From the NCBI GenBank assembly GCA_038087875.1, contig CM075994.1, forward strand, positions 10,046,001-10,110,000: a stretch of DNA of 64,000 nucleotides. The letters are read 5' to 3'. Source of the stretch: Malacoraja senta (lineage: Eukaryota). Positions 470 to 63,383 of the stretch are shown here, piece after piece. Under the pieces are notes generated by a model, which saw only the letters and a list, made by a program, of their open reading frames with translations, was not told the DNA's origin and made no database searches. The position numbers and the translations under genes are program-made. How positions within the stretch are numbered: position 1 is the first letter of the stretch; every line of letters begins with the position of its first letter.

Positions 470-1070
470 TGTTTGGACTACGCAGTTGCATGGGACCCGT
501 ACACAAATTTAAAAAAAATCTTCCATTGAACGTGTCCAAAGACAGGCAGCTCGATTTGTTACTAATGCCGTTAAGAGAGAAGCGAGTGTACAAACTTCTG
601 AATTCAATGGTCGAGGTGGAACCCTCTCCAAGACAGACGTAAAGCTCACCGTTTGACCTGTTTTTTACAAAATGTTAAATGGTCAGCTCGACATAGATTA
701 ATTCTGAAGAAGGGTTTCAGCCCGAAACGTTGCCTATTTCCTTCGCTCCATAGATGCTGCCGCACCCGCTGAGTTTCTCCAGCACTTTTGTCTATCTATA
801 GATTATAAAACCTATTAGGAGCAGATGAGGGCATTCGATCCAATTTGAGATACCAGCTACCAAGACAGATGTGTACAGCAAATAATTCTTCCCCCGCACA
901 ATTAAAGCATGGAATAGTCTTCACCCTACCATAGTTACTCAACCAGACACAACTAAATTTAAGGTAGCTCTTTTTTCCCAAGAACCCTTTTTTGCTTAAG
1001 TCCACCCTCCACCATCTTCAGTTTAAATTCCATTTGGAATATTTTTGGAGGACCAGGAAACCAAGAATCA
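470..1070 (+). mobile_element. Degraded CR1/L2-type LINE 3' fragment
   Basis: Remnant peptides IERVQRQAARFVTN and FFPRTIKAWNSL typical of the C-terminus of LINE ORF2. Confidence 0.55.
701..797 (+). mobile_element. Short Penelope-derived element with minimal hammerhead-like motif
   Basis: ctgaaga-agggtttcagccc-gaaacgtt at 704-731; flanked by atagatta direct repeats (693-700, 798-805). Confidence 0.6.
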
Positions 1071-1751
1071 GGCAACTGAACCATCCTACCAACAACCAGA
1101 GAGCAGTTCTGACTTACTACCCACCTCATTGGAGACCTGCAGACTATTTTTGATCAGACTTTACAGGATTTTATCTTGCACTTAACGTTATCCATGTTTA
1201 TTTTTATATGAATGTGTGTGTGTATATATATATTATTCATATTTATATATATAAACACACACTGGACTTTTTTCCTTGGTTATTATATTGTTTGCAGGGT
1301 ACAATGTTTACATACTCTGTTGTGCTGCTGCAAGTAAGCATTTCATTGGGACATATGACAATAAAACACTTTTAGCTATCATTTATCTGTACACACAAAA
1401 TGCTGGAGTAACTCGGCTGGTCAGGCAGCATCTCTGGAGAGAAGGAAGGGATAACGTTTCGGGTCGAGACCCTTTTTGAAGTTAAGGTTAGGGTGAGAGA
1501 ATGGTTTCGACCCATTCCTTCTCTCCAGAGATGCTGCCTGATCCGCTGAGTTACTCCAGCATTCTGTGTCTACGTTCGATCTAAACCAGCATCTGCAGTG
1601 TTTTGCTACACATGTACCTGTACACTGTGGATTGCAGTCAAGTCAAAAGAGTTTTATTGTCATCTGTCCCAGATAGGACAATGAAATTCTTGCTTGCTGC
1701 AGCACCACAGAATATTGTAAGCATGATACAGAACAGTTCAGCGTGTCTATA

Positions 1752-3505
1752 TAGATACATAGAAAATAGGTGCAGGAGTAGGCCATTCGGCCCTTCGAGC
1801 CTGATCATTCAACTCAGTATCCCGTACCTGCCTTCTCTCCATACCCCCTGATCCCTTTAGCCACAAGGGCCACATCTAACTCCCTCTTAAATATAGCCAA
1901 TGAACTGGCCTCAACTACCCTCTGCGGCAGAGAGTTCCAGAGATTCACCACTCTCTGTGTGAAAAATGTTTTTCTCATCTAGGTCTTAAAGGATTTCCCC
2001 CTTATCCTTAAGCTGTGACCCCTTGTCCTGGACTTCCCCAACATCTGGAACAATCTTCCTGCATCTAGCCTGTCCAACCCCATTAGAATTTTGTAAGTTT
2101 CTATAAGATCCCCTCTCAATTTCCTAAATTCTAGCGAGTATAAGCCGAGTCTATCCAGTCTTTCTTCATATGAAAGTCCTGACATCCCAGGAATCGGTCT
2201 GGTGAACCTTCTCTGCACTCCCTCTATGGCAATAATGTCCTTCCTCAGATTTGGAGACCAAAACTGTACGCAATACTCCAGGTGTGGTCTCACCAAGACC
2301 CTGTACAACTGCAGTAGAACCTCCCTGCTCCTATACTCAAATCCTTTTGCTATGAAAGCTAACATACCATTCGCTTTCTTCACTGCCTGCTGCACCTGCA
2401 TGCCTACTTTCAATGACTGGTGTACCATGACACCCAGGTCTCGCTGCATCTCCCCTTTTCCTAATCGGCCACCATTTAGATAATAGTCTGCTTTCCTGTT
2501 TTTGCCACCAAAGTGGATAACCTCACATTTATCCACATTATACTGCATCTGCCAAACATTTGCCCACTCACCCAGCCTATCCAAGTCACCTTGCAGTCTC
2601 CTAGCATCCTCCTCACAGCTAACACTGCCCCCCAGCTTAGTGTCATCCGCAAACTTGGAGATGTTGCCTTCAATTCCCTCATCCAGTTCATTAATATAAA
2701 TTGTAAATAGCTGGGGTCCCAGCACTGAGCCTTGCGGTACCCCACTAGTCACTGCCTGCTATTGTGAAAAGGAACCGTTTACTCCTACTCTTTGCTTCCT
2801 GTTTGCCAGCCAGTTCGCTATCCACATCAATACTGAACCCCCAATACCGTGTGCTTTAAGTTTGTATACTAATCTCTTATGTGGGACCTTGTCGACAGCC
2901 TTCTGAAAGTCCAGATACAACACATCCACTGGTTCTCCCTTATCCACTCTACTAGTTACATCCTCGAAAAATTCTATAAGATTCGTCAGACATGATTTAC
3001 CTTTCATAAATCCATGCTGACTTTGTCCAATGATTTCACCACTTTCCAAATGTGCTGCTATCCCATCTTTAATAACTGTCTCTAGCAGTTTCCCCAGTAC
3101 CGATGTTAGACTAACTGGTCTGTAATTCCCCGTTTTCTCTCTCCCTCCCTTCTTAAAAAGTGGGGTTACGTTTGCTACCCTCCAATCCTCCGGAACTACT
3201 CCAGAATCTAAAGAGTTTTGAAAAATTATCACTAATGCATCCACTATTTCTGGGACTACTTCCTTAAGTACTCTGGGATGCAGCCTATTTGGCCCTGGTG
3301 ATTTATCGGCCTTTAATCCATTCAATTTACCCAACACCAGTTCCCGACTAACCTGGATTTCACTCAGTTCCTCCATCTCCTTTGACCCGCGGCCCCCTGC
3401 TATTTCCGGCAGATTATTTATGTCTTCCTTAGTGAAGACAGAACCAAAGTAGTTATTCAATTGGTCTGCCATATCCTTGTTCCCCATGATCAATTCACCT
3501 GTTTC
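1752..3505 (-). mobile_element. CR1 LINE, ORF2 RT half, inactivated; 5' part runs into the gap
   Basis: GVPQGSVLGP and SKFADDTK RT motifs; TGG>TAG stop at 2759-2761; near-identical to the copy at 6395-10306. Confidence 0.92.
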
Positions 3506-3705
3506 NNNNNNNNNNNNNNNNNNNNNNNNNNNNNNNNNNNNNNNNNNNNNNNNNNNNNNNNNNNNNNNNNNNNNNNNNNNNNNNNNNNNNNNNNNNNNNN
3601 NNNNNNNNNNNNNNNNNNNNNNNNNNNNNNNNNNNNNNNNNNNNNNNNNNNNNNNNNNNNNNNNNNNNNNNNNNNNNNNNNNNNNNNNNNNNNNNNNNNN
3701 NNNNN
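3506..3705. other. Assembly gap (200 N)
   Basis: Run of N. Confidence 1.
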
Positions 3706-3849
3706 GCTGATGTGTATTGTCTTTCCGCTGACTGATCTGCAACATCCAGGTTCAGGAACAGCTACTTCCCCACAGCCATCAGACTATTAAACTTGACTCA
3801 AACAAAAATCTGAACTTTAATAGCCTGTTGCACTTTATCTGCTTATTTA

Positions 3850-4743
3850 TGACGTCGTACGGTCATGGGCAGATTCATGGGTAATTTTCGGCCCATTTCC
3901 CTAACCGGTTTCCGTCTCCGCACCAAAGATCCCAGTGCGGAGACAGATGCCGGTTACGGAAACATCCTCGTAAAAATAAAAGTTATTTGGTAAAAATCTT
4001 CTCATTTTCAGAATTTTAATTTATTAACACGAACTGTTCCCCCGCAACGTTGATTACACTGCGAGAGGGATAACCAAAGTCGGATCGGTTTACTGAAATG
4101 GATGAAAAAAAGGTCCACTTTCTGCTCCGTTGCGTACTACATGGTCCTGTGGTCCACAACAGCCAAGTCGGCATATGTTGTGGAATTGACAGTTCCATGG
4201 GAAGATGGTGTTGAAGAAGCTCATGAGACCAAGTACTCTGAACTGGCAAATGAAGCTTCCCAGAATGGCTGGAAGACCAAGATGTTCCCTGGCGAAGTGG
4301 GATGCAGGGGATTTGTTGCTACATCTATGACCAGGCTACTAAAGAAAATGGGGGTGAGGGGGCGCTCCCTCCAACAAGCAATCAAATCATTATCAAATTC
4401 TGCAGAAAAAAGCAGCAATTGGATTTGGATCAAAGGGAGAGACAACAATTGGGCTGCAAGATGAAGACAGGAGGATATGGAATTGAGGGGGGTGTAACTG
4501 GGACGCCAGGTATCACCGTTGAGCCCTCTGGAGATGTTGTGGGCTTATCAATGAAACGTGAAAGAAGGAGGGTGCCCAACTGATGACCCCGATGACGTAC
4601 CTACCCCACCTTTCACCACTCTAATCCCACTGCAAATAGCAAGAGTGCCGACTTACTACAGGGATTGAAACATCAAGTCCTATTAACGTCAGCCCATTGC
4701 ATTTAGCAGAAGTGGTCTATCTTGCTCCGCTATAGGATCTTTG
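3850..4743 (-). mobile_element. Non-autonomous DNA element (CAAAGAT-TIR family), inverted partial copy interrupted by a HERO fragment
   Basis: Reverse-complement match to 18708-19235, including terminus gtggtctatcttgctccgctataggatctttg. Confidence 0.7.
4140..4685 (+). mobile_element. HERO-clade non-LTR retrotransposon 3' fragment (restriction-like endonuclease domain)
   Basis: MVLWS..AYVVELTVPWEDGVEEAHE..KY..GW..EVGCRGF motif, stop at 4464. Confidence 0.75.
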
Positions 4744-4849
4744 CTTTTCACTGTACCTCGATACACGTGGCAACAAATTACTTCAAACTTGCCGCCTCTT
4801 GTGAGTTTGGTCAGTTGGGGGGGGGTAACGGAAGCCATCGCCTGCTGCG

Positions 4850-4928
4850 ATTGGTTCATCTGTGCAAGCAGTCAGTCAATAGGAATCGGCGGTCGCTGAT
4901 CCTTCATTTGCATACCGCTGCCTATATC
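4850..4928 (+). promoter_or_regulatory. H2B-type promoter: inverted CCAAT, octamer, TATA
   Basis: attgg 4850-4854, ATTTGCAT 4906-4913, tatat 4923-4927. Confidence 0.8.
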
Positions 4929-5009
4929 AGAGAGGCCGCGGGGGGCGGGAGGGGCACTCGTCGGGTGGCTGCCTCCTCTGTTCTTGGTGCCGTGTTAGGA
5001 GGCTTCGCG

Positions 5010-5435
5010 ATGCCGACCGTCGTTGCCGCCGCAGCCGCCGCCGCCACCGGCGCCTCGGCGGCGAGCGCCAAAGGCGCCATCTCCAAGAAGGGCTCGAAGA
5101 AGACGGCCATGAAGATGAACCGCAAGGGCGACAAGAAGCACAGGAAGGCCAGGAAGGAGAGTTACAGCGCCTATATCTACAAGGTGCTGAAGCAGGTGCA
5201 CCCGGACACGGGCATCTCCTCCAAGGCCATGAGCGTCAGCAACTCCTTCGTCAACGACATCTTCGAGCGCATCGCCTCCGAGGCCTCCCGCTTGGTGCAC
5301 TACACCCGCCGCCAGACCATCTCCTCCCGGGAGATCCAGAGCGCCGTCCGCCTGCTGCTGCCCGGAGAACTGGCCAAACACGCCGTCTCGGAGGGGACGA
5401 AAGCGGTCACCAAATACACAAACTCCTCCAAGTAG
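5010..5435 (+). CDS. H2B: Histone H2B variant 1 (141 aa, Ala-rich N-tail), intronless
   Basis: ATG at 5010; [20 protein letters not shown]...[22 protein letters not shown] histone fold; promoter and stem-loop present. Confidence 0.93.
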
Positions 5436-5478
5436 ATCTTTTCTCCACCCATCAAAAGCTGCGACGAGACCGTCAAAC

Positions 5479-5494
5479 GGCTCTTTTAAGAGCC
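5479..5494 (+). terminator. Histone mRNA 3' stem-loop
   Basis: GGCTCTTTTAAGAGCC preceded by caaac and followed by ac. Confidence 0.92.
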
Positions 5495-5896
5495 ACTTAA
5501 ACCGTTTAGACTGGGCTATAATAGATTTGCACCCGTCAATCGAATTGGATACATGTGATACTTGGATACAAATGAAAACCAAAATATTTAATATTGCAAA
5601 ATGGTGGAGTCAAATTCAAATGGACTGAATTTAAATCGAAATTCAAATGGACTGAATTTAAATCGAAATTCAAAATCTGAATTTAAATGGACTATTAAAA
5701 TGAACCCTACCCAATAAAAAATATACTCAGATTTGGAATGATGTCTTGGTATTGCTTTAGTAACACTATTAAAATGAACCCTATCCAATAAAAATATACC
5801 CAGATATGTGGAATGTCTTGGTATCTTTGGTATTGCTTTAGTAGCATCATAATTTTAATAAAATAAAGAAATGTGGGCGGGACAGTGGCCTCACAA

Positions 5897-6290: not shown

Positions 6291-6299
6291 AAGATCACA

Positions 6300-6394: not shown

Positions 6395-6577
6395 GATCAC
6401 GGTTGGGAGAGGCAAGGGGCACAGGCAGGGACTAGAGAGTACCCCGGTGGCTGTACACCTTGACAATAAGTACTCCTGTTTGAGCACTGTTGGGGTGGAC
6501 AGCCTACCTGGGGTGGCGACAGTGGCCGGGCCTCCGGTATAGAGACCGGTCCTGTTGCTCAGAAGGGTAAGGAAAAG

Positions 6578-7093
6578 ATGAGGAGGGCAATATTAATAGG
6601 GGATTCTATAGTTAGGGGGTCAGACAGGCGATTCTGTGGACGCAGTCGGGAGACCCGGATGGTAGTTTGCCTCCCTGGTGCCAGGGTCTGTGATGTGTCT
6701 CAACGTGTCCAAGACATTCTGAAAGGGCAGGGAGAGGAGCCCGAAGTCGTGATACATATAGGTACCAATGACATAGGTAAAAAAAGAAAAGAGGTCCTGA
6801 AAGGAGAATTTAGGGAGTTAGGAGGGGAGTTAAAGAGAAGGACAGCAAGGGTAACAATCTCGGGATTACTGCCTGTGCCACGCGACAGTGAGAGTAGGAA
6901 TGGAGCGAGGTGGAGGATAAATGCGTGGCTGAAGGACTGGTGCAGAAGGCATGGATTAAAATTTCTGGATCATTGGGACCTCTTTTGTGGAAGGTTCGAC
7001 CTGTACAAAAAGGATGGGTTGCACTTGAACCTGAGGGGGACAGATATCCTGGCGGGGAGATCTGCAAAGGCTACTGGGGAGACTTTAAACTAG
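6578..7093 (+). CDS. CR1 ORF1, SGNH/GDSL esterase domain (5'-truncated)
   Basis: ILIGDSIVR, HIGTND and DGLHLN esterase blocks. Confidence 0.85.
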   Translation: MRRAILIGDSIVRGSDRRFCGRSRETRMVVCLPGARVCDVSQRVQDILKGQGEEPEVVIHIGTNDIGKKRKEVLKGEFRELGGELKRRTARVTISGLLPVPRDSESRNGARWRINAWLKDWCRRHGLKFLDHWDLFCGRFDLYKKDGLHLNLRGTDILAGRSAKATGETLN

Positions 7094-7272
7094 AATGGTT
7101 GGGGGGAGGGACTCAAATAGAGAATGCTATTAGACAGTGTGTGAGGCAGGAGGCAGAGAAGGAAAGCACTCAGACCCAACATGTAGGGGGGAAAGAAGAA
7201 AACAATAATAAACAGAGAATAAGAGGTGGTGGGGTTCTTAAATGGGTGAGCAGAGAAACAGAGGGGTGCAAA

Positions 7273-10209: not shown

Positions 10210-10836
10210 GTTGGATGATCAGCCATGATCATATTGAATGGCGGTGCAGGCTCGAAGGGCCGAATGGCCTACTCCTGCACCTATTTTCTATGTATCTATG
10301 TATCTATACTCCGGTTTCCTCCCACGCTCCACAAAGTCGTTTAGGTTTATAGGTTAATTGGCTCTGTAACGTGTAAATTGCCCCCACTGTAGGAAAGTGC
10401 TATTGTATGGGGTGATCATTGGTCATTGGTGGGCCGAAGGGCCTGTTTCCACGCTGTATCTCCAAAGTTTAAAGTCTAAAGAGTGGATGAGAAAGTGTGA
10501 TATCGGGTCGAGACCCTTCTTCAGACCGATGTGGAGGTTGGGGGGGGGGGGGGTGCGGGAAGAAGCCTTGTGTGAACGGGTAATCGATGATCGACATGGA
10601 CTCAGTGGTCCAAAAGCCTGTGTCCATGCTGTATCTTTCAATCAATTAGAAAGACTTCTCAGCGTTTATTCAACAGAGTGAACTGACTCCAGGAATATAA
10701 CAGGATGTCCAGAAATACCCTGTAATCTCTGCTTGCTGCTGATATTCTTCGGGGGGGGGGTTGGTTCTTGAAGGAAATTTCGCACTTGGAATTTATCTGG
10801 CACGATTTTCATCTGGGTTAATTGCCCTCTCATTAA

Positions 10837-11915: not shown

Positions 11916-13299
11916 TAAGACAGCGGATGAGAATGTGATACTGTATAGTATATAACTAGTGTGAATGGGTAAGAAGAAACTGCAGATGCTGGTTTACACC
12001 AAAGACGCAAAATGCTGGAGTTCCTCAGCAGGTCAGGCGGCATCACTCGAGAGAAAGAATGGGTGACATTTTGGGTTGAGACCTTTCTTCAGACTCCTGA
12101 ACTGACAGACTGTCTCCAGAGATGCTGCCTGTCCCGTTGAGTTTCTCCAGCATTTTGTGTCTATCTTTAGCGCGAATGGGTGATCGATGATCGACATGGT
12201 CTCGATGGGCCGAAGGGCCTGTTTCAACACCGTATCTAAAATAAACGCGACATGAAGAATTAATTCTTGCTTCCGTTATTTCTTTGTGTTGTTAACCTGA
12301 AGCCATCTTTCCGTCTTAATATGGTCCAAATACCTCTTGATTATTAATGCCATCAAAGGTTAATGCGGAAAGGCAGGAGAATGGGGCTGAAGAGGGAAAG
12401 ATAGATCAGTCGTGATTGAATGAAGTAACAGATTCGATGGGCTGAATGGCTTAATTCTGCTCCGTTGACTTAAGGGGTACAGGGAAGATTTACGAGGATG
12501 TTGCCAGGATTAGAGGATCTGAGCTATCGGAGGGATTGCGCAGGCTGGGACTCTTATTCCTTGGAGCGCAGGAGGATGAGGGGTGATCGTATAGAGGTGT
12601 ACAAAATCTTGAGAGGAATAGATCGGGTGGATGCAGAGTCTCTTGCCCAGAGTAGGGAAATCGAGGACCAGAGGACATAGGTAGACACAAAATACTGGAA
12701 CAACTCAGTGGAACAGGCAGCTTCTCAGGAGAGAAGGAATGGGTGACGTTTCAGGTCAAGACCCTTCTTCAGATTTAAGGTGAACGGGAAAAAGATTTCA
12801 TAGGAAACTGAGGGGTAACATTTTCCACACAAAGGGCGGTGGGTGTATGGAACGAGCTGCCAGAGGAGGTAGTTGAGGCTGGTACTATCCCAACATTTGC
12901 GAAACAGTTAAACAGGTACATACTACAATTGACTATTATTATTATTATTATTATTATTGGACTACTGTTCAAGAACAGCTTCTTCCCCACAGCCATCAGG
13001 CTATTAAACATGCCATCAAACAAGCTCTGAACTATAACAGTCTATTGCACTTGATCTGTTTATTTATTGTGTACATATATGGTCTATGGTATATAGACAC
13101 ACTGAACCTTTATCTCCTGTTCTGTATTATTTTTATTCTGTTGTGCTGCAGCAAGCAAGAATTTCATTGTTCTATCTGGGTCACATGACACAAAAACACT
13201 CTTGACTCAAGACGGATAGGCCGGGTTTGGAAGGATATGGGCAGGCAGGTGGGGCTAGTGTGGCTGGGACATGTTGGCAGGTGTCAAGTCAACTCAAGT

Positions 13300-13845
13300 C
13301 TTTCCAGGTGCGACAGAGGTTCACCTGCATCTCCTCCAACCTCATCTATTGCTTCCAGTGCTCTAGATGTCAGCTGATCTACATCGGTGAGACCAAGCGT
13401 AGGCTTGGCGATCGTTTCGCCGAACACCTCCGCTCGGTCCGCATTAACCAACCTGATCTCCCGGTGGCTCAGCACTTCAACTCCCTCTCCCATTCCGAAT
13501 CCGACCTCTCTGTCCTGGGCCTCCTCCATGGCCAGAGTGAGCACCACCGGAAATTGGAGGAACAGCACCTCATATTCCGCTTGGGCAGTCTGCACCCTAG
13601 TGGCATAAACATTGAATTCACCAATTTCCGGTAGCCCTTGCTGTCTCCTCCCCTTCTCAACTTTCCCTCAGCCCTCGGGCTCCTCCTCTTCCTTTTTCCT
13701 TTCTTCTCCCCATCCCTTCCCACCCACCCCTCCCACCCTACTTCAGTCTGAAGAAGGGTTTCAGCCCGAAACGTTGCCTATTTCCTTCGCTCCTTAGATG
13801 CTGCTGCACCCGCTGAGTTTCTCCAGCACTTTTGTCTACCTTCAA
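13300..13845 (+). mobile_element. Penelope-like element 3' fragment (GIY-YIG endonuclease plus hammerhead-containing end)
   Basis: NLIYCFQCSRCQLIYIGETKRRLGDRFAEH; ctgaaga..gaaacgtt motif near 13748-13775. Confidence 0.85.
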
Positions 13846-14395
13846 GTCAAGTCAAGTCACTTTTATTTCTATAGCACATTTAAAAAACAACTCTCGTTGA
13901 CCAAAGTGCTTTACATTGGTGGAGGTACTAACGTTATACAACAGTGGTTCATAGATTAAGTACATACATAAATACATACATATAACCCTCCCTCAGAGGA
14001 CGTCAAGAAAAGCTTGAGAGTAAAGATGAGTTTTAAGTCTCGACTTAAAGGAGTCGATGGAGGGGGCAGTTCTGATGGGAAGAGGGATGCTGTTCCACAG
14101 TCTAGGAGCTGCAACCGCAAAGGCGCGGTCGCCCCTGAACTTATGCCCCTGGGGATGTTCAGCAACCCCAAGTCGGCCGATCTGAGGGACCTGGAGGTGG
14201 TGTGGTGGGTAAGCAGATTTTTGATGTAGGTGGGGGCAAGCCCATTGAGGGCTTTGTAGACATAAAGAAGGATCTTGAAATTTATTCGGAACCGCACAGG
14301 GAGCCAGTGGAGAGAGGCCAGATTCGGGGTGATGTGGTCCCTTTTTCGGGTGCCCGTCAGGAGTCTCGCTGCAGCGTTTTGGACCAGTTGCAGGC
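13845..14395 (-). mobile_element. L2 LINE 3' fragment
   Basis: FRINFKILLYVYKALNGLAPTYI..RSLRS; (gactt)n tail. Confidence 0.8.
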
Positions 14396-16245: not shown

Positions 16246-16409
16246 ATCTTTTATTGCAAAGATCCACAAATTCTGAATTAATTCACTGTCTGGTACGTGT
16301 CTCGACACCGGTGCAGTTAGGTTTTCTGTTTCACTAGATCCTGCCATCGACTAACCAAGAGAAATAAGATGCAAGGGGTTGCCAGTCTTTGGTTATTGTG
16401 ATTGTGAAT

Positions 16410-16425
16410 GGCTCTGAAAAGAGCC
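16410..16425 (-). terminator. Histone mRNA 3' stem-loop
   Basis: Minus strand CCAAA-GGCTCTTTTCAGAGCC-ATTCA, canonical stem-loop. Confidence 0.93.
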
Positions 16426-16489
16426 TTTGGGTCGGAGAGGTGTGGAGAAGGAGGGGGAGAGGGGGAAAAAGCGCGGGAGTTTCGTGTTG

Positions 16490-16909
16490 CTATTTGCAGC
16501 TGGTGTATTTGCTGACCGCTTTGGTCCCCTCGGAGACGGCGTGCTTGGCCAGCTCCCCGGGCAGCAGGAGGCGCACGGCCGTCTGGATCTCCCGGGAGGA
16601 CATGGTCTTCCGCTTGCTGGTGCGGATCAGGTTGGCGGCCTCGGAGGCGATGCGCTCGAAGACGTCGTGCACGAAGGAGTTAATGACACTCATGGCCGAC
16701 GAGGCGATGCGCACGTTGGGGTGGACCTGCTTCAGCACCTTGTAGATGTAGATGCCGTAGTTGAGCTGGCCGCACTTGCGCCGCTGCCGCTGCTTCTGCT
16801 TCTGTTTCTTCTTCTTCTCGCCCGGCTTCAGCCGCTTCTTGACGGGGGCTTTCTTCGGCCTCCCAACCCCCCGGCGCGGCGCTCGGCCCTTGGTTGCCCG
16901 CTGCGGCAT
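16490..16909 (-). CDS. H2B: Histone H2B variant 2 (139 aa, Arg/Lys/Gln-rich N-tail), intronless
   Basis: [13 protein letters not shown]...[20 protein letters not shown]...[29 protein letters not shown] at 16909 lies downstream of the TATA-like box. Confidence 0.9.
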
Positions 16910-16957
16910 CGTCCGCGGCCGCCGCCGACTGTGCCTCGGGCGCGCCGGGCGACCCCC

Positions 16958-17070
16958 TTTCATAGGCGGCCGCATGCAAATGAGGGATCGCAGGGCGCCG
17001 CCATTCCCATTGGCTCTCGATGCGGCCATTCCGCCGCAGACGATTGGTGGCTCGTTGGCCTCATGCAAAT
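16958..17070 (-). promoter_or_regulatory. H2B-type promoter with two octamers and two CCAAT boxes
   Basis: TATGAAA 16958-16964; ATTTGCAT (minus) 16974-16981 and 17063-17070; CCAAT 17009-17013 and 17043-17047. Confidence 0.8.
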
Positions 17071-17114
17071 GAGAACCCGCTTCCACGTGGCCGTTGGTCC
17101 GAAGACCACTTCAT

Positions 17115-19235: not shown

Positions 19236-20659
19236 GATAAAGCTGCCACAGCCAGATATAAAAACAGTTTTTACCCACGAGTAGTTGCTCTACTCAACAG
19301 CCAAAAATCTGTAGCCTCCCTTTGATCTGGCATTTTGTTGGTTCACATGCTTGATCAATGGTGTTTTATCATTAATGTTTTATTATTATTAATGTTTAGT
19401 ATTTTCTGAGTCATTCTTAACTGTCACTGTATGTCATGTTGTTACTTGTGGGCAGAGCACCAAGGCAAATTCCTTGTATGTGAATACTTGGCCAATAAAC
19501 ATACTTACTTACTTACTTACTTATTCGGCCCTTCGATTCAATGTGATCATGGCTGGTCATCCACAATCAGTACCCCGTTCCTGCCTTCTCAAAGGTTCAA
19601 AAGGTTCAAAGGTTCATTTATTGTCACATACACCAATTGGTGTAGTGAAATTCGAGTTGCCATTGCGGCACATTAATAAGAATACAACATAACATTATCA
19701 AGGAATTTAACATTAAACATATCCTCCATATCCACTGACTCCGCTACCTTTAAGTGCCCTATCTAGCTCTCTCTTGAAAGTATCCAGAGAACCGGCCTCC
19801 ACCGCCCTCTGAGGCAGAGGATTCCACAGACTCACAACTCTCTGTGTGAAAAAAATGTTTCCTCGTCTCCATTCTAAACGGCTCACCCCTTTTCTTAAAC
19901 TGTGTGGCCCCTGGTTCTGGACTCCCCCAACATCGGGAACATGTTTCCTGCCTCTGGCGTGTCCAAACCCTTAATAATCTTGGAGGGTACGGCAGCATCT
20001 ATGGATCTATGCTCCATAGAAGCTGCCTCACCCACTGAGTTTCTCCAGCAATTTTGTCTACCTTCGATTTTCCAGCATCTGCAGTTCTTTCTTGAACACT
20101 CTTAATAATCTTACATGTTTCAATAAATTCCAGAGTGTACCAGGCCAGATCCGGCCTTTGGGCCATAGGTTGCCGACCCCATTGTAGAGTTATAACAGTG
20201 CGGAAACAGGCCCCTTCTCGCCTCACATGTCCCAGCCACACTAGCCCCACCATATCCCTCCAAACCTGCCCTGTTTAACTGTTTCGCAAACGTAGGGATT
20301 GACCCAGCCTCAACTATCTCTTCTGGCAGCTCGTTCCAGACACCCACCACCCTTTGTGTGGAAAATGTTACCCCTCAGTTTATTATTCAATCTTTTCCCG
20401 TTCACCTTAAATCTGAAGAAGGGTCTCGACCCAAAACGTCACCCATCCCTTCTCTCCAGAGATGCTGCCTGTCCCGCTGAGTTACCCCAGCTTTTTGTGT
20501 CTATCTTCGGTTTAAACCCAGCATCTGCAGTTCCTGCTTACACACTATCCATGTACCTGATTGTTTCTCAAGCGTTTCTCGAACTGCCTCATCTACCTCC
20601 TCTGGCAGCTCGTTCTGTATACCCACCACCCTTTGTGTGAAAGCGTTACCCATAATTGA

Positions 20660-27206: not shown

Positions 27207-27617
27207 CTCAGTGGGATCTCGGTGTCGGACTGAGGGGAGGGGGGGGGGGGGGGCTGGAGGTGTATGGCTGCCGGCCATAATCAGAGCTGGAGCCAGTGGC
27301 TGCGTGTCTGGGGCCCAGGACGCCCCGCCAGCCCCGGGCCACCGCAGACAGGGACGGGACTCCGGGGAGGGGACTGGGAATGGCCCAACAGCAACTCAAC
27401 AGCGACGGAGAGACGACCCCAACCATGGACGAAACGCAATCCAGCACTTTGTGTCTTTTTTTGTAATCCAGCATCTACAATTCCTTGAAGGTAGATGGAA
27501 AATGCTGGAGAAAATCAGCGGGTGAGGCAGCATCTATGGAGAGAAGGAATTAGCGACGTTTTGGATCAAGACCCTTCTTCAGACTGATGTGGGGGGGGGA
27601 GCAGGAAGAAGAAAGGA

Positions 27618-29130
27618 AGACCAGTTGGTCTAACATCGGTAGTGGGGAAACTGCTAGAGTCAGTTATTAAAGATGGGATAGCAGCACATTTGGGAAGTGG
27701 TGAAATCATTGGACAAAGTCAGCATGGATTTACGAAAGGTAAATCATGTCTGACGAATCTTATAGAATTTGTCGAGGATGTAACTAGTAGAGTGGATAGG
27801 GGAGAACCAGTGGATGTGTTGTATCTGGACTTTCAGAAGGCTTTCGACAAGGTCCCACATAAGAGATTAGTATACAAACTTAAAGCACACAGTATTGGGG
27901 GTTCAGTATTGATGTGGATAGAGAACTGGCTGGCAAACAGGAAGCAAAGAGTAGGAGTAAACGGGTCCTTTTCACAATGGCAGGCAGTGACTAGTGGGGT
28001 GCCGCAAGGCTCAGTGCTGGGACCCTAGCTATTTACAATTTATATTAATGACCTGGATGAGGGAATTGAAGGCAACATCTCCAAGTTTGCGGATGACACT
28101 ACGCTGGGGGGCAGTGTTAGCTGTGAGGAGGATGCTAGGAGACTGCAAGGTGACTTGGATAGGCTGGGTGAGTGGGCAAATGTTTGGCAGATGCAGTATA
28201 ATGTGGATAAATGTGAGGTTATCCACTTTGGTGCCAAAAACAGGAAAGCACACTATTATCTAAATGGTGGCCGATTAGGAAAAGGGGAGATTAAGCGAGA
28301 CCTGGGTGTCATGGTACACCAGTCATTGAAAGTAGGCACACAAAAATGCTGGAGAAACTCAGCGGGTGCAGCAGCATCTATGGAGCGAAGGAAATAGGCA
28401 ACGTTTTGGGCCGAAACCCTTCTTCAGAACATCATTGAAAGTAGGCATGCAGGTGCAGCAGGCAGTGAAGAAAGCGAATGGTGTGTTAGCTTTCATAGCA
28501 AAAGGATTTGAGTATAGGAGCAGGGAGGTTCTACTGCAGTTGTACAGGGTCTTGGTGAGACCACACCTGGAGTATTGCGTACAGTTTTGGTCTCCAAATC
28601 TGAGGAAGGGCTTTATAGCCATAGAGGGAGTGCAGAGAAGGTTCACCAGACTGATTCCTGGGATGTCAGGACTTTCATATGAAGAAAGACTGGATAGACT
28701 TGGCTTATATTCGCTAGAATTTAGGAGATTGAGAGGGGATCTTATAGAAACATACATAATTCTTATAGGGTTGGACAGGCTAGATGCAGGAAGATTGTTC
28801 CCGATGTTGGGGAAGTCCAGGACAAGGGGTCACAGGTTAAGGATAAGGGGGAAATCCTTTAAGACCGAGATGAGAAAAAACATTTTCACACAGAGAGTGG
28901 TGAATCTCTGGAACTCTCTGCCACAGAGGGTAGTTGAGGCCAGTTCATTGGCTATATTTAAGAGGGAGTTAGATGTGGCCCTTGTGGCTAAAGGGATCAG
29001 GGGGTATGGAGAGAAGGCAGGTACGGGATACTGAGTTGGATGATCAGCCATGATCATATTGAATGGCGGTGCAGGCTCGAAGGGCCGAATGGCCTACTCC
29101 TGCACCTATTTTCTATGTACCTATGTATCT
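27618..29130 (+). mobile_element. CR1 LINE RT/3' fragment with a 93-bp insertion
   Basis: RT motifs, nonsense codon at 28026-28028, insertion 28339-28431 with 16-bp TSD. Confidence 0.9.
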
Positions 29131-29134
29131 AAGA

Positions 29135-29752
29135 GGGGGAGCCAGTGGGCTGTGGGAGAGCTGGGAAGGGGAGGGGAAGGAGGGAGAAAGCAAGGACTAC
29201 CTGAAATTGGAGAAGTCAGTGTTCATACCGCTGGGGTGTAAACTACCCAAGCGAAATATGAGGTGCTGCTCCTCCAATTTGCGCTGGGCCTCATTCTGGC
29301 CATGGAGGAGGCCCAGGACAGAAAGGTCAGATTGGGAATGGGAGGGGGAGTTGAAGTGCTGAGCCACCGGGAGATCAGGTAGGTTAAGGCGGACTGAGTG
29401 GAGGTGTTGGGTGAAGCGATCGCCAAGCCTACGCTTGGTCTCACCGATGTAGATCAGCTGACACCTAGAGCAGCGGATGCAATAGATGAGGTTGGAGGAG
29501 GTGCAAGTGAACCTCTGCCGCACCTGGAAAGACTGCTCGTGTCCTTGGCTGGAGTCGAGGGTGGAGGTAAAGCGACAAGTGTAGCATTTCCTGCGGTTGC
29601 AAGGGAAAGTACCCGGCGAGGGGGAAGGTTTGGGTGGGATGGGACGAATTGACCAGGGAGTTATGGAGGGAGCGGTCTCTGCGGAAACCAGAAAAGGGGA
29701 GGAGATAGGAAGATGTGGCCAGTGGTAAGATCCCGTTGGAGGTGGCGAAAAT
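29135..29752 (-). mobile_element. Penelope-like element fragment (GIY-YIG)
   Basis: NLIYCIRCSRCQLIYIGETKRRLGDRF. Confidence 0.85.
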
Positions 29753-34445: not shown

Positions 34446-35505
34446 CAGCAGCATCTCTGGAGAGGACATCTCTGGACAGTCACGGTGGCGCAGCGTAGAG
34501 TTGCTGTCTTACAGCGAATGCAGCGCCGGAGACCCGGGTTCCATCCCGACTACGGGTGCTGTCAATAGACAATAGGTGCAGGAGTAGGCAATTCGGCCCT
34601 TCAAGCCAGCACCACCATTCCATGTGATCATGGCTGATCATCCACAATCAGTACCCCGTTCCTGCCTTCTCCCCATATCCCCTATCTTTAAGAGCCCCAT
34701 CTAGCTCTTTCTTGAAAGTATCCAGAGAACCGGCGTCCACCGCCCTCTGAGGCAGAGAATTCCACAGACTCACAACTCACTGTGAGAAAAAAGTGTTTCC
34801 TCATCTACGTTCTAAATGGCTTACCCCTTATTAAACTGTGTGGTCCCTGGTTCTGGACTCCCCCAACATCGGGAACATGTTTCCTGCCTCTAGCGTGTCC
34901 AAACCATTAATAATCTTACATGTTTCAATAAGATCCCCTCTCATCCATCTAAACTCCAGAGTATACAAGCCCAGCCGCTCCATTCTCTCAGCATATGACA
35001 GTCCAGCCATCCCGGGAATTAACCTGGTGAACCTATGCTGCACTCCCTCAATAGCAAGAATGTTCTTCCTCAAATTAAAACTGCACACAATACTCCAAGT
35101 GTGGTCTCACTACGGCCCTGTCCAACTGCAGAACGAACTCTGCGCGGAGTTTGTACCTTCTCCCCATGATCTGCGTGGGTTTTCTCCGAGATCTCTGGTT
35201 TCCTCCCACACTCCAAAGACGTACAGGTTTGTAGGTTAATTGGCTTGGTGTAAATGTAAAAATTGTCCAGTATAAAATTGTCAAATGCTGAGTTATGCTC
35301 CACCTAGAGTATTTCAGCGTACGACATCCAGACCTAGATCCAGGATCACATTTCGAGTCCAGACCCTTCTTCAGACCCGAAACCTCACCCATCCCTTCTT
35401 TCCAGAGATGCTGCCTGTCCCGCTGAGTTACTCCAGCACTTTGTGTCCATCTTCAGTTTAAAACAGCACCTGCAGTTCCTTCCTACACAAATGTTGGTTG
35501 AGTTT

Positions 35506-56000: not shown

Positions 56001-56006
56001 TTTATT
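56001..56006 (-). terminator. Probable HSP70 polyadenylation signal
   Basis: AATAAA on the minus strand 200 nt after the stop. Confidence 0.65.
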
Positions 56007-56206: not shown

Positions 56207-58126
56207 TTAATCAACTTCTTCGATGGTTGGGCCGCCGGCTGCGTTCTTTCCCATCTGCCCGGCGAAGGAGCCCTCGGGCATGCCCCCATGGTAGAGCTTG
56301 CTGATAATCGGGTTGCAAATCTTCTCCAGGTCTTTCAGCTGCTGTTCGTATTCATCCTTCTCTGCCGTCTGGTTGGACTCCAGCCAGGATATGGTCTGGT
56401 TGCACTTCTCCACCACCTTGTTCTTGTCTTCATCGCCGACCTTGCCCCGCACCTTCTCGTCCTCCACCGAGCTCTTCATGTTGAACGCGCGGGACTCCAG
56501 GGAGTTCTTGGCCGCGATCCGCTCTCGTTGGCGCTCGTCTTGCCCTTTGTACTTTTCCGCCTCCTGCACCATCCTCTCGATCTCCTCCTTGCTCAGCCGG
56601 CCCTTGTCGTTGGTGATGGTGATCTTGCTCTCCTTGCCCGTGCTCTTGTCCACGGCGGACACGTTGAGGATGCCGTTGGCGTCGATGTCGAAGGTCACCT
56701 CGATCTGGGGCATTCCGCGCGGGGCAGGTGGGATGCCGCACAGATCGAACTTGCCCAGGAGGTTGTTGTCCTTGGTCATGGCCCTCTCGCCTTCGTACAC
56801 CTGGATGAGGACCCCGGGCTGGTTGTCAGAGTAGGTGGTGAAGATCTGGGTCTGCTTGGTGGGAATGGTGGTGTTCCTCTTGATGAGGGTGGTCATGACA
56901 CCGCCCGCCGTCTCCAGACCCAACGACAGTGGGGTGACATCCAGGAGGAGCAGATCCTGGACGTTCTCCGACTTGTCCCCCATCAGAATGGCCGCTTGGA
57001 CAGCCGCCCCGTAGGCCACCGCCTCGTCAGGGTTGATGCTCTTGTTCAGCTCCCTGCCGTTGAAGAAATCTTGCAGCAGCTTCTGGATCTTGGGGATGCG
57101 GGTGGAGCCGCCGACCAGGACAATGTCGTGAACTTTTGACTTATCCAACTTGGCATCTTTAAGAGCCTTCTCCACCGGCTCCAATGTGCCTCGGAATAAA
57201 TCGGTATTTAGCTCTTCCAATCGAGCCCTGGTGATTGAGGTGTAGAAGTCAATGCCCTCGAACAGAGAATCGATTTCCACACTGGCCTGGGTGCTGGAAG
57301 ACAGGGTTCTCTTTGCTCTCTCGCAGGCTGTCCGCAGCCTCCTCACCGCCCTCTTGTTCGGGCTAATGTCCTTCCTGAATTTCCGCTTGAACTCCTCAAT
57401 GAAGTGGTTGACCATGCGATTGTCAAAGTCCTCTCCACCCAGGTGGGTGTCGCCGGCTGTGGACTTCACTTCAAAGATACCGTCGTCGATGGTGAGGATG
57501 GACACGTCGAAGGTGCCGCCACCCAGGTCAAAGATGAGGACATTGCGCTCTCCACTGCCCTTCTTGTCCAGGCCGTAGGCAATGGCACCTGCAGTTGGTT
57601 CGTTGATGATGCGCAGGACATTGAGACCAGCGATCACGCCGGCATCTTTGGTTGCCTGCCGCTGGGAGTCATTGAAGTAAGCGGGCACGGTGATAACGGC
57701 GTTGGTGACATTGTAGCCCAGGTAAGCCTCGGCCACCTCCTTCATCTTGGTCAGCACCATGGAGGAGATCTCCTCCGGGTAGAAGGTTTTATTCTCCCCC
57801 TTGTACTCTACCTTCACCTTGGGCTTCCCAGCGTCGCTCACCACCTGGAAGGGCCAGTGCTTCATGTCGGACTGGACCACGGGGTCGTCGAACCTCCTCC
57901 CGATGAGCCTCTTGGCGTCGAAGACGGTGTTGGACGGGTTCATGGCCACCTGGTTCTTGGCCGCGTCGCCGATGAGCCTCTCGGTGTCGTTGAAGGCCAC
58001 GTAGCTGGGGGTGGTGCGGTTGCCCTGGTCGTTGGCGATGATCTCCACCTTGCCATGCTGGAAGACGCCGACGCAGGAGTAGGTGGTGCCCAGGTCGATG
58101 CCAATGGCTGTTCCCTTGGCTGCCAT
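56207..58126 (-). CDS. HSP70: Cytosolic HSP70 (HSPA1/HSPA2-like), intronless, 639 aa
   Basis: [22 protein letters not shown] and [14 protein letters not shown] signatures; ends GPTIEEVD. Confidence 0.98.
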
Positions 58127-58244
58127 TGTTGAGTCCCACCCACGCCTCTGAAACGGTGGACTACTAGCCCGCTGGCCGATCTACCCACCTGCACCTCCCC
58201 AACTCTCCTTTCCGCTCTGCCGCGCCTTCTCGCCTCAAGCCCCT

Positions 58245-59930: not shown

Positions 59931-60361
59931 ATCTCTGCATGACTTGGGTAGGCGACCTTCTTCAGTCTGAATCGCTCAATGGACACATAAAAATTGCTCT
60001 ATCACTCTGTCCTCCACAAGATTCCAGCATCTGCGGCCTCTTGTGTCTAATGTCCGTGCCCATTGCTGATCTTTAATAATAGGAATAGAAGTAAGCTGGG
60101 TGCTTCTTCCAAACTTGATGTGCTCCAATAATATTATATCTCAATTTGAACTTCCTTGATTCATTTCCAATATATTACATTAAGGTGGATTCCATAAGTA
60201 CTTTGGGCCTCGAATCCACTTAACCACTGGGTATCCGCTTGCTTCTGGGGTTGTGTACTCACCAACTCTCGAAGCAGAGGAATTACTCCTGGCCCCATCC
60301 CTAAAGTTACCCCAGCTAAGCCCCCCTATGTACCATACACTGCTGCCAATAAATTAATCTT

Positions 60362-61145
60362 ACGTCATTTTCGCCACCTCCAACCTGACCCCACCACTCG
60401 CCACATCTTCCCATCTCCTCCCCTGTCCGCTTTCCGCAGAGACAGCTCCATCCGTAACTCCCTGGTCAATTCGTTCCTTCCCACCCAAACCATCCCCTCA
60501 CCTGGTACTTTCCCTTGCAACCGCAGGAAATGCTGCACTTGTCGCATTACCTCCCCCCTTGATTCCATCCAAGGACTCAAGCTGTCTTTCCAGGTGTGGT
60601 AGAGGTTCACCTGCACCTCCTCAAACGTCATCTATTGTATCCGCTGCTCTAGGTGTCAGCTGCTCTACATCGGTGAGACTAAGCGCAGGCTTGGCGATCG
60701 CTTCGCCCAACACCTCCGCTCACTTCGCAATAACCAACCTGATCTCCCGGTGGCTCAGCACTTCAACTCCCCCTCCCATTCCGAATCCGACCTTTCTGTC
60801 CTGGTCCTCCACCATGGCCAGAGTGAGCCCCGCCTCAAATTGGAGGAGCAGCACCTCATATTTCGCTTGGGTAATTTACACCCCAGCGGTATGAACATTG
60901 ACCTCCAATTTCAGGTAGTCCTTGCTTTCTCCCTCCTTCCCCTCCCCTTCCCAGCTCTCCCACAGCCCACTGTCTCCGCCTCTCCCGTTCTTCTTCCCGC
61001 ACCACCACCTCCACATCAGTCTGAAGATGGGTCTCGACCGAAACGTCACCTATTCCTTCACTCCATAGATACTGCCTCACCCGCTGAGCTTCACCAGCAT
61101 TTTTGTCCACCTTCGATTTTTCCGGCATCTGCAGTTCTTTCTCAA
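60362..61145 (+). mobile_element. Penelope-like fragment with GIY-YIG region and hammerhead-like end
   Basis: Homologous to 13300-13845 and 29135-29752; ctgaaga..gaaacgtc at 61021-61047. Confidence 0.82.
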
Positions 61146-61964
61146 ACAATAATCTCCCGTCATCTAGCATTTTAAATATCTGCGTGGTTAAATAACAACC
61201 TCTCGCCCTTCTAATCTCCAATGAATATTAGCCCGTTTTATTTACTTCCAGTTGCCCGGATCCAGGTGTGACCTCTGTTCCATCCTGGACCGATGTAGAA
61301 GGATGGATTCATTGGCGATACTTGCGAATGGGGATATCATTAACACGATAACATTTTTTACGGGATTGGCACCGGGGATGACTGGGTTAATGTATGATGC
61401 AGCCTGTATTGGCTGGAGTTCAGTGGGATGAGGGATGGACCTCATTGAAACTTACCGAGCAGTGAAAGAGTGGATGTGGAGAGGGTGTTCCACTAGTGGG
61501 AGAGCCTAGGACCAAGGGGATATGAGGAAGAATTTATTCAGCCAGAGGGTGCAGTTCATTGCCACTAACGGCATTATCTTCAGTTTCCTGTCCACCAATT
61601 TCAACGCAGGAGTAAGCGGATGTACAGTCTGAAAGCCACCACCTATTTTGCTCTAAGGATGCTCTATACAAAATGAACTAGAGCAGGTCACCCATGGGCG
61701 GAAATCCGGGGGGGGGGACGGGGCGACGCCCCCCATGTTTTGATAGCGATTTCCGCCCCTGATCCACCTCTCTCCAAATTGCCGCTGATTGGTCATAATT
61801 TTAATTGCCTTCCGAAGAAATTCTCGGGGAAATAATATCAAAGAGGGAAAAATGAAACAAAAAACGTAGGAAAGATCTTCAGATGCTGGTTTTCAACTGA
61901 AGATAGACACACAGTGCTGGAGTAACTCAGCGGGACAGGCAACATCTCTGGAGAGATGGAATAT

Positions 61965-61996
61965 GTGACGTTTCGGGTCGAGACCCTTCTTCAGAC
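61965..61996 (-). ncRNA. Minimal type I hammerhead-ribozyme-like motif
   Basis: Minus strand gt-CTGAAGA-a-GGGT-ctcg-ACCC-GAAA-CG-TC-ac. Confidence 0.65.
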
Positions 61997-62474
61997 TCTT
62001 TACTGGAATTTATCTTGCATTAAACGTTATTCCCTGTATCTGTTTGAGCCATGTGGACAGCTTGACCCTTATTCAGACTGGGAATCGGTGGGAGAGGGAA
62101 ACTAGAGTTGTGAGAAGGTGCAAAGAACAAATGAATGACATGTGTGAAAAGACCAAATCAATAAACAATAGACAATAGGCTTCTTCTTCTTGCTTATAGT
62201 GTGCACAGCCTAAAGTTATAGGACAACTTGTGGACAAGTTGTGGACAATCAGCCGTGATCACATTGAATGGCGGTGCTAGCTCGAAGGGCCGAATGTCCT
62301 AGTCCTGCATAAAAAAATCAAAGTCAGCAACGACGATCAAGGAAAGGTGGATCCCACAATGGTCCATTGTTGGCGGTGGAAAAGATGACAACTATCTTTA
62401 ACTGGACTTAAGATAGACACAAAAAGCTGGAGTAATTCAGCGGGACAGGCAGCATCTCTGGAGAGATGGAATGG

Positions 62475-62506
62475 GTGACGTTTCGGGTCGAGACCCTTCT
62501 TCAGAC
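62475..62506 (-). ncRNA. Minimal type I hammerhead-ribozyme-like motif
   Basis: Identical core to 61965-61996. Confidence 0.65.
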
Positions 62507-62914
62507 TCTTTACTGGAATTGATCTTGCGTTAAACGTTATTCCCTTTATCTGTTTGAGCCATGTGGACAGCTTGATTCTACAGTCTTTTCATTGACTGGG
62601 TAGCACGCAACAAATTGTTTTCCACTATATCTCGGTATAGGTGGCAATAGGTAAATTAAACTAAACTAAGGTGCAAAAAAATTGAGTACATGTGTAGCAA
62701 ATGGTCGCTATAGTTAGCGGCACGAGTTTCTGCCTTGCAGCGTCAGACCCGGGTTCGATCCTAACTATGGGTGCTTGTCTGTACGGACTTTGTATGTTCT
62801 CACTGTCATCTGCTTGGCTTTCTCCGGGAGCTCCTGTTTCCTCCCACATTCCAAAGATGTACAGGTGTGCCGGCAAAATTAAAAATTAAAAATGACCCTA
62901 GTGGGTAGGTAGGA

Positions 62915-63383
62915 TGACAAAAATGCTGGAGAAACTCAGCGGGTGAGGCAGCATCTATGGAGCGAAGGAATAGGTGACGTTTCGGGTCGAGACCCTTCTT
63001 CAGACTGACGTGGGGGTGGGAGGGGCGGGAATAAGAACGGAAGAGGCGGAGACTGTGGGCTGTGGGAGAACTGGGAATGGGAGTGGAAGGAGGGAGAAAG
63101 CAAGGACTACCTGAAATTGGAGAAGTCAGTGTTCATACCGCTGGGGTGCAAACTACCCAAGCGAAATATGAGATGCTGCTCCTCCAATTTGCGGTGGAAC
63201 TCACTCTGGCCATGGAGGAGGCCCAGGACAGAAAGATCGGATACGGAATGGGAGGGGGGAATTGAAGTGCTGAGCCACCGGGAGATCAGGTTGGTTAATG
63301 CGGACTGTGCGGAGGTGTTGGGCGAAGCGATCGCTAAGCCTGCGCTTGGTCTCACCAATGTAGAGCAGCTGACACCTAGAGCA
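62915..63383 (-). mobile_element. Penelope-like 3' fragment
   Basis: GIY-YIG C-terminal peptide LEEQHLIFRLGSLHPSGMN followed by the hammerhead-containing end. Confidence 0.82.
62974..63005 (-). ncRNA. Minimal type I hammerhead-ribozyme-like motif in a Penelope terminal region
   Basis: Identical core, about 100 nt downstream of the Penelope ORF stop. Confidence 0.68.

What the first reader, a model, noticed from the sequence alone, without database searches (positions are those of the whole stretch)
701..63005. Dispersed minimal hammerhead-ribozyme-like motifs tied to Penelope ends
Seen: about 15 intact or degenerate copies of CTGAAGA-a-GGGT(ctcg)ACCC-GAAA-CG-TC/TT, near 11, 704, 1455, 10500, 12065, 12745, 13748, 20413, 27555, 28400, 35350, 61021, 61965, 62475 and 62974. 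Three follow GIY-YIG ORF ends on the same strand. Known: CUGANGA, GAAA and NUH form the hammerhead core, and Penelope-like elements carry minimal type I hammerheads whose palindromic helix III (here ACGU) needs dimerisation. Inference: roughly one motif per 4 kb, so transcripts crossing this region could self-cleave. Helix I is only 2-3 bp, so activity is uncertain.
Basis: partly seen in the sequence, partly recalled or inferred. Interest (0 to 1): 0.72.

Follow-up and report, generated by a model that had tools for sequence, protein, structure and literature searches.

The report
Penelope retrotransposon stubs carrying hammerhead ribozymes
These repeats are the ends of a known kind of jumping gene (a Penelope-like retrotransposon) that carry a known minimal self-cutting-RNA motif; most are short, decaying stubs, and their shared front edge likely marks the capped start of the element's RNA rather than the ribozyme's cut.

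Summary
All 15 copies exist (16 motif hits vs 0.36 in shuffles), but only 6 pass a strict minimal hammerhead descriptor. They are terminal-repeat pieces of an abundant RT + GIY-YIG Penelope-like family with a Neptune/Nematis-type linker. Hammerhead identity is well supported: helix I covaries on both sides in distant relatives (9 of 9 families paired, p=0.0003). The window is not special: 280 copies per Mb in a 1 Mb sample and 43,504 exact cores genome-wide. Copies decay like neutral DNA, including catalytic G12 (44 of 182 mutated to A), and monomers are not predicted to fold, so widespread cleavage of host transcripts is unsupported. The useful detail: 208 of 383 copies end just 5' of the core, with no excess at the cleavage site. 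An extra G precedes the A of an initiator-like TCAGT (46% vs 26% background), as expected if reverse transcriptase ran off a capped, uncleaved RNA. Minimal hammerheads in these elements are published, and this scan noted the same stubs and the extra G in other genomes. Known kind, modest interest.

The parts
6..115 (.). Head-to-head pair: minus-strand stub with broken core (6-39, C3 at 37) and plus-strand tail arm (48-115)
701..805 (+). Short stub with intact minimal hammerhead (C3 704, predicted cut after 731); 8-bp flanking direct repeat (within the range chance gives)
   Evidence: null for repeats
1383..1615 (.). Head-to-head pair of stubs (1383-1477 minus, core lost; 1498-1615 plus, with tail); predicted long hairpin
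10482..10530 (-). Broken copy, GAAA lost, 3' part missing
11964..12173 (.). Head-to-head pair: minus stub starting G-AGT-CTGA with G12-to-A (11964-12095) and plus tail arm (12113-12173)
12676..12773 (-). Stub passing the descriptor with G-U pairs (C3 12772); shares 238 bp with the 20413 locus
13296..13854 (+). 5'-truncated PLE: GIY-YIG end (13296-13628), pyrimidine-rich pLTR, intact hammerhead (C3 13748)
20008..20099 (+). Tail-only stub, with a short inverted arm at 19976-20009
20412..20545 (+). Stub with tail; G12-to-A
27478..27589 (-). Copy with some pLTR upstream; G12-to-A
28339..28431 (-). 93-bp stub inserted into a CR1 RT frame with a 16-bp target-site duplication (28323-28338 / 28432-28447); G12-to-A
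29203..29698 (-). PLE linker + GIY-YIG fragment that breaks off before the hammerhead
35343..35493 (.). Head-to-head pair: broken minus core (35343-35376) and plus arm with tail (35373-35493)
60351..61151 (+). Longest PLE fragment in the window: C-x4-C-x2-C linker, GIY-YIG (to 60905), pLTR, hammerhead with one helix II base missing (C3 61021), tail
61863..61997 (-). Stub with intact hammerhead (C3 61994) starting G-AGT-CTGA; local duplicate of the 62504 copy
62064..62079 (-). Sixteenth, partial core at the end of an interrupted pLTR
62399..62507 (-). Stub with intact hammerhead (C3 62504) starting G-AGT-CTGA
62909..63383 (-). 5'-truncated PLE: GIY-YIG end (63113-63383), pLTR, intact hammerhead (C3 63003)

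Best explanation
The repeats are terminal-repeat pieces of an abundant Penelope-like retrotransposon (RT plus C-terminal GIY-YIG) that carry a minimal type I hammerhead motif, and most are likely dead-on-arrival copies of the first 100-135 bases of the element's uncleaved, probably capped RNA. Inferred steps: transcription starts at or near the A of an initiator-like TCAGT three bases before the core. The element's protein nicks DNA and starts reverse transcription at one of two internal sites about 95-100 and 128-135 nt past C3. Using those sites in the RNA's 5' copy gives a run-off stub ending at the cap; using them in the read-through 3' copy gives the longer 5'-truncated elements. The ribozyme is kept by selection in master elements, probably for dimer- or protein-assisted trimming of tandem transcripts, but dispersed copies are unselected and mostly inert.
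For: Element: near-complete 1,020-codon frame with RT, C-x4-C-x2-C linker and GIY-YIG, and a tandem junction in which the hammerhead leads into the N-terminal region of the next copy; the best named homologues are from sharks and rays. Ribozyme: hammerhead within 700 nt after GIY-YIG in 11 of 30 distant relatives, 0 on the minus strand, 0 in 100 shuffles; helix I, not required by the descriptor, paired in 9 of 9, 8 of 9 and 7 of 9 families, with all four Watson-Crick types at the first pair; 0 of 10 non-CpG core columns vs 18 of 56 tail columns polymorphic among subfamilies, p=0.03. Stub anatomy: two 3' end clusters (165 and 163 of 383); 208 of 383 5' ends in -12..+6, hazard 0.087 per nt vs 0.004-0.014 elsewhere; 53 of 89 in a set chosen only by a downstream anchor; 9 of 13 TSD-defined junctions at -4..-1; no excess at the cleavage site, 5 vs 34 in the flanking 18 nt, p=0.67. 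Cap-like G before A(-3): G 2,141, A 1,144, T 1,325 (46% G vs 26% background); one base further out G/A is 416/467 vs 0.74-0.78 background; interior direct junctions 3 G of 23, 7 expected. Decay: G12 is A in 44 of 182, like other CpG G's (20-52 of about 185). Literature: internal RT starts, use of unprocessed RNA and a protein-assisted hammerhead in an anole PLE (PMC11167929); extra G marks capped full-length L1 insertions (PMC11702581).
Against: No direct RNA 5'-end, cleavage or transposition data. The pile-up is broad, not sharp: among non-inverted short copies with AGT intact, 63 of 93 also keep C(-4) and 43 of those keep T(-5), so a start at -3 explains only part. Alignment-based ends carry a few bases of error. 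The genome-wide G counts cannot exclude inverted junctions or duplicated stubs, and the in-sample control is small (6 G of 11 at -3, p=0.046; none in excess among inverted copies). Non-CpG core identity (0.954) is slightly above invariant tail columns (0.928), though hits were required to span the core. 19 of 30 relatives had no descriptor hit.
Confidence: 0.7

Rival explanations
1. The stubs come from long templates, and RT stalls or switches template at the ribozyme's 5' edge (RNA structure, or annealing at the near-palindrome CAG-T-CTG); the RNA does not start there.
For: Ends spread over about 18 nt and many keep TCAGT; 70 of 211 copies have a head-to-head partner, often joined at this near-palindrome.
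Against: It does not explain the G excess specific to -4; a structural block should stop RT on the 3' side of the fold; the pile-up is similar in copies with and without the tail (99 of 165 vs 81 of 163).
Confidence: 0.2
2. Dispersed copies act as functional self-cleaving elements in host transcripts, for example as cis dimers in same-strand clusters.
For: 46 strict motifs per Mb; three intact same-strand copies within 1 kb at 61994-63003; the element is present in polyA reads on both strands in run X24, whose organism may differ from this genome's; dimeric minimal hammerheads cleave weakly in vitro (PMC4209133).
Against: Near-neutral decay of catalytic G12; predicted misfolding of 4 of 4 monomers; a single minimal motif showed no cleavage in PMC4209133 and the anole motif needed protein in PMC11167929.
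Confidence: 0.1
3. The stubs are a self-propagating non-autonomous family (retrozyme- or SINE-like) amplified from hammerhead-cleaved monomers or circles.
For: Very high copy number, shared boundaries and own TSDs; a preprint derives animal retrozymes from pLTRs (10.64898/2026.07.22.740005).
Against: Units do not begin or end at the cleavage site (5 of 383 starts at +27..29; 2 of 274 ends at +26..29); the three clustered window copies are not a tandem repeat; stub variants match the ends of long elements.
Confidence: 0.07
4. The pyrimidine tract plus CAG before the core is a 3' splice site, as for the Drosophila virilis Penelope intron, and splicing sets the boundary.
For: Acceptor-like sequence at the position where the D. 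virilis intron ends (PMC4209133); one subfamily has a donor-like AG|GT at the ORF stop.
Against: Spliced junction found once vs 4,637 unspliced, and that one has no ORF upstream; the donor GT is missing in another subfamily; no such joint listed in RNA reads; TSDs show insertions begin at the edge.
Confidence: 0.05

Closest known systems
Minimal type I hammerheads (min-HHR) in pLTRs of metazoan PLEs, including fish Xena, Poseidon and Neptune (Cervera and De la Pena 2014, PMC4209133; parts 1-2 of 4 read)
   Same: CUGANGA, one extra base before helix II, G10.1-C11.1, GAAA, palindromic 15.2-16.2, short helix I, pLTR position, mostly single dispersed copies from truncated elements.
   Different: Copy number: about 46 strict motifs per Mb here (roughly 90,000 by extrapolation) vs about 9,000 in Xenopus tropicalis and 4,000 in coelacanth, with a different descriptor. 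Helix I is only 2 bp. Cartilaginous fishes are not named in the parts read.
Poseidon element of Anolis carolinensis, PAc (Frangieh et al. 2024, PMC11167929; parts 1-2 of 4 read; 3 supplements searched, no hits for the terms)
   Same: Two 3' ends about 35 nt apart (the tail), downstream of the hammerhead; inserts derive from uncleaved RNA; no RNA-seq ends at the cut site.
   Different: Different clade (linker motif present here); the ORF's first ATG lies about 170 nt past C3 rather than in helix II; the parts read do not describe a 5'-end pile-up or extra G.
Neptune/Nematis EN+ PLEs with partial tandems, inverted 5'-truncated copies and tail (Craig et al. 2021, PMC8557442, passages; Adineta Penelope, PMC3846280, passages)
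   Same: RT, CX2-5CxxC linker, C-terminal GIY-YIG, tandem and head-to-head structures, TSDs, Inr-like sequence in the pLTR (Adineta).
   Different: Stubs far outnumber coding fragments: 383 tail-anchored copies vs 31 GIY-YIG loci per Mb.
Non-LTR retrozymes (Li et al. preprint 10.64898/2026.07.22.740005; parts 1-2 of 5 and passages read)
   Same: Type I hammerhead, pLTR origin, reported in one chondrichthyan.
   Different: Defined there as tandem units each with a hammerhead; these are dispersed monomers or inverted pairs.

Membership tests
Minimal type I hammerhead | CUGANGA, GAAA, U16.1-H17 core with helix II | tested here: met
   6 of 15 window copies; 46 per Mb vs 0 in 5 shuffles
Minimal type I hammerhead | Palindromic A15.1-U16.1 segment allowing dimer helix III | tested here: met
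   ACGT in the family consensus and in all 9 families compared, where it was a descriptor and selection requirement
Minimal type I hammerhead | Helix I supported by compensatory change | tested here: met
   9 of 9, 8 of 9, 7 of 9 paired, permutation p 0.0003-0.004; 8 families picked from 22 hits. Only 2 bp in this family
Minimal type I hammerhead | Self-cleavage after H17 | not testable with these tools
   No assay; no end pile-up in fragmented polyA reads, which cannot show such ends well
Rfam hammerhead families | Match to a curated covariance model | tested here: not met
   No hammerhead among 50 hits at E<=10
EN+ Penelope-like element | One ORF with RT and C-terminal GIY-YIG | tested here: met
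   1,020-codon frame in L212; RVT_1 E=6e-6 and GIY-YIG E=0.001, both below Pfam gathering scores; GIY-YIG above cut-off in 2 of 4 window fragments
EN+ Penelope-like element | pLTR from partial tandem, inverted 5' copy, 30-40 bp tail | tested here: met
   L212 and L227 tandems; 70 of 211 inverted; two 3' end clusters
Neptune or Nematis clade | CX2-5CxxC linker before GIY-YIG | tested here: met
   C-x4-C-x2-C in two window fragments and in L212
Neptune clade | RT phylogeny groups with named Neptune elements | not tested
   No named reference sequences at hand; Neptune vs Nematis not resolved
Non-LTR retrozyme | Tandem units each carrying a hammerhead | tested here: not met
   Spacers between 61994, 62504 and 63003 are not repeats of one unit; not tested genome-wide

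The most novel reading that the evidence does not exclude
Several hundred thousand stubs are complete run-off cDNAs of the first 100 or 135 nt of a capped, uncleaved Penelope RNA. They would record in vivo both internal RT start sites and the transcription start, which sits on the ribozyme's own helix I strand, so that promoter, ribozyme and RT-start signals share about 140 nt and the ribozyme must stay off during translation and insertion.
Probability: 0.55. Interest if true: 0.55.

Novelty: new member of a known kind. Interest (0 to 1): 0.35.

Why it matters
The ribozyme-in-pLTR arrangement is published, so the finding itself is ordinary. Its value lies in scale and in what the stubs record. 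How Penelope-like elements are transcribed and copied, and what their hammerhead is for, are still open questions. A very large set of natural insertions with defined ends gives predictions to test directly: start site at A(-3), RT starts near +97 and +132, and uncleaved RNA as template. It also cautions against reading high hammerhead counts in such genomes as functional ribozymes.

Tried and rejected
Rfam scan: no hammerhead hit. Splicing at the CAG before the core: rejected for want of spliced genomic copies or read joints. Cleavage-defined template: no end excess at +27..29. Retrozyme tandem at 61994-63003: a local 170-bp duplication plus an independent element. Pairing of the tail with the core as cause of the 5' pile-up: similar pile-up without the tail. 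Generic terminal G addition: not seen at interior junctions, n=23. Covariation scan among tail columns gave only subfamily-linked signals. One search had a one-column offset and was redone. Viral contigs held no relative. No RNA holder on record was listed for this stretch; the one raw RNA run (X24) is of a coded organism whose relation to this genome is unknown, only about 6% was read, and its strand bias over the ORF was not interpreted. The genome sample covers 19 large contigs only, so extrapolations to 1.94 Gb are rough.
Full report
Observation. All 15 listed copies are present, and a relaxed 12-mer occurs 16 times against 0.36 on average in 50 shuffles. Six of 15 pass a strict minimal type I descriptor. 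One lacks a helix II base and eight are broken, four by G12-to-A at a CpG. Three lie 110-120 nt after a same-strand GIY-YIG end. Two pairs are duplicates of each other with their flanks. Rfam lists no hammerhead at E<=10.

Positions below are relative to C3, the C of CTGA, set to 0; the predicted cut lies between +27 and +28.

Scale. The genome has 1.94 Gb. An exact 28-nt core pattern occurs 43,504 times, the reversed control 0 times. In 100 stretches of 10 kb spaced along 19 large contigs (998,600 bases), 280 hits span the core and 46 pass the strict descriptor, against 0 in each of five shuffles. That extrapolates roughly to 540,000 and 90,000 copies. The window's density is average.

The parent element. 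[quoted passage not shown] Loci L212 and L227 are partial tandems in which the hammerhead and tail run into the N-terminal region of the next copy. The best named homologues are shark and ray proteins, so the host is probably a cartilaginous fish (inference). The linker points to Neptune or Nematis (PMC8557442, passages); no tree was built. Of 31 GIY-YIG loci in the sample, 21 have a same-strand motif hit within 450 nt downstream.

Is it a hammerhead? Within the genome, subfamilies differ at N7, the loop and H17 and show one-sided U-A to U-G changes. None of 10 non-CpG core columns is polymorphic, against 18 of 56 tail columns (p=0.03). Of 80 metagenomic relatives, 35 reach the GIY-YIG end and 30 have enough flank. 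Eleven of these 30 carry the motif 96-142 nt downstream, none on the opposite strand and none in 100 shuffles. From 22 hits in the 80 loci I kept 8 distinct families, dropping near-duplicates and two hits without the ACGT segment, and added one window copy. Helix I, which the descriptor did not require, pairs in 9, 8, 7 and 3 of 9 at successive positions, with all four Watson-Crick types at the first (p=0.0003, 0.001, 0.004, 0.17). Selection on the ribozyme fold in master elements is therefore well supported. Cleavage itself is untested.

Are the dispersed copies functional? Among 192 full-span copies of 420 hits, non-CpG core identity is 0.954 against 0.928 for invariant tail columns, a small gap that the spanning requirement may inflate. 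G12 is A in 44 of 182, within the range of other CpG G's (20-52 of about 185). 63 of 192 keep core and helix II, 42 also the palindrome. In four of four intact window copies folded with 130 nt of context, helix II has probability 0.10 or less and helix I about 0; in two, the GGGU strand pairs instead with the bases after the cut. 70 of 211 copies have a head-to-head partner. In published work a single minimal motif did not cleave and dimers cleaved weakly (PMC4209133), and the anole motif needed protein (PMC11167929). Run X24 covers the motif on both strands with no place where many reads begin or end, but this library type is weak evidence and its organism may differ from this genome's.

How the stubs arise. 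3' ends cluster near +95-100 and +128-135, matching the two internal RT start sites and tail described for the anole element. 5' ends: 208 of 383 copies end in -12..+6, a hazard of 0.087 per nt against 0.004-0.014 in other windows, and only 45 extend further (independently, 44 of 149 copies reaching -3 have a pyrimidine tract upstream). A set chosen only by an exact downstream 54-mer (89 copies scored from the first 90 or so of 5,355 matches, all on C1) gave 53 of 89. TSDs of 10 bp or more flank 13 of 92 short copies against 6 of 400 controls, and 9 of the 13 junctions lie at -4..-1. The window's 28339-28431 stub has a 16-bp TSD inside a CR1 frame. There is no excess of starts or ends at the cut site.

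The base at -3 is the A of TCAGT, an initiator-like sequence (consensus recalled). After three A/T bases, the base preceding AGTCTGAAGAAGGGT is G 2,141 times, A 1,144 and T 1,325: 46% G against 26% background. One position further out G/A is 416/467 against 0.74-0.78. Long copies have G there in 1 of 127, so it is not a subfamily variant. An extra G marks capped full-length L1 insertions (PMC11702581, one passage). Against a single sharp start: 63 of 93 short copies with AGT also keep C(-4), the in-sample test is small (6 of 11), and the genome-wide counts include inverted and duplicated copies. I read this as run-off from a capped RNA for a substantial part of the stubs, with nearby starts, microhomology and template switching blurring the edge. 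These steps are inferred.

Comparison and novelty. Minimal hammerheads in PLE pLTRs and their dispersed single copies are described in PMC4209133; tandem, inverted and tail structures in PMC8557442 and PMC3846280; a pLTR promoter with Inr and DPE in PMC2377424 (passages). My searches (listings only, apart from the papers named as read) showed no paper devoted to chondrichthyan PLE hammerheads or to a cap signature in PLE stubs. The library lacks most subscription journals and Repbase, and the preprint's supplements were not seen. Earlier notes of this scan report the same stubs in many genomes (535 findings in at least 39 genomes match the search words) and the extra G twice. I had framed the G test and seen the main counts before reading the two extra-G notes. 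Verdict: a real, well-supported new member of a known kind; the host-cleavage inference is unsupported; the stub ends are a useful mechanistic record.

Noticed in passing
window 19071-19147: Perfect 30-bp inverted repeat with a 17-nt loop; similar copies in 3 of 100 sampled stretches, so a small dispersed palindromic repeat.
   Followed up: partly
window 4707-5519 (+) and 16386-17110 (-): Two histone H2B-like genes with 3' stem-loops; the second has a long Arg/Lys/Gln-rich N-terminus, possibly a sperm-type variant.
   Followed up: no
window 56207-58180 (-): Intronless HSP70 reading frame near the histone genes.
   Followed up: no
window 6470-10209 (+) and 1751-3505 (-): Near full-length CR1-type element with esterase ORF1 and APE-RT ORF2, and a 97% identical inverted partial copy on the other side of the first H2B gene.
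   Followed up: partly
window 40808-41839, 50234-51265, 52646-53677: Three Tc1-type transposase frames of 343 aa, each without stops, beside long CA-rich simple repeats (only the first scanned).
   Followed up: no
window 12660-12900 and 20250-20510: Two stubs share 238 bp with their flank, which is itself a common repeat; the stub was probably carried or duplicated inside another element.
   Followed up: partly
L175, L176 and many small G000 contigs: Many near-identical PLE GIY-YIG fragments on unplaced contigs, embedded in a larger repeated unit (99.5% over 8.8 kb between the two fetched).
   Followed up: partly
L323, L326, L329, L331, L342, L343, L355 and window 63003: In 8 of 9 families a pyrimidine-purine step puts the purine at -3 or -2 before CTGA, as at a Pol II start; read by eye, weak.
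   Followed up: no
L212:6562-6700: The tail's 3' end is complementary to the core's 5' strand and pairs with it in the predicted fold, a possible off switch (z-score only -0.98).
   Followed up: partly
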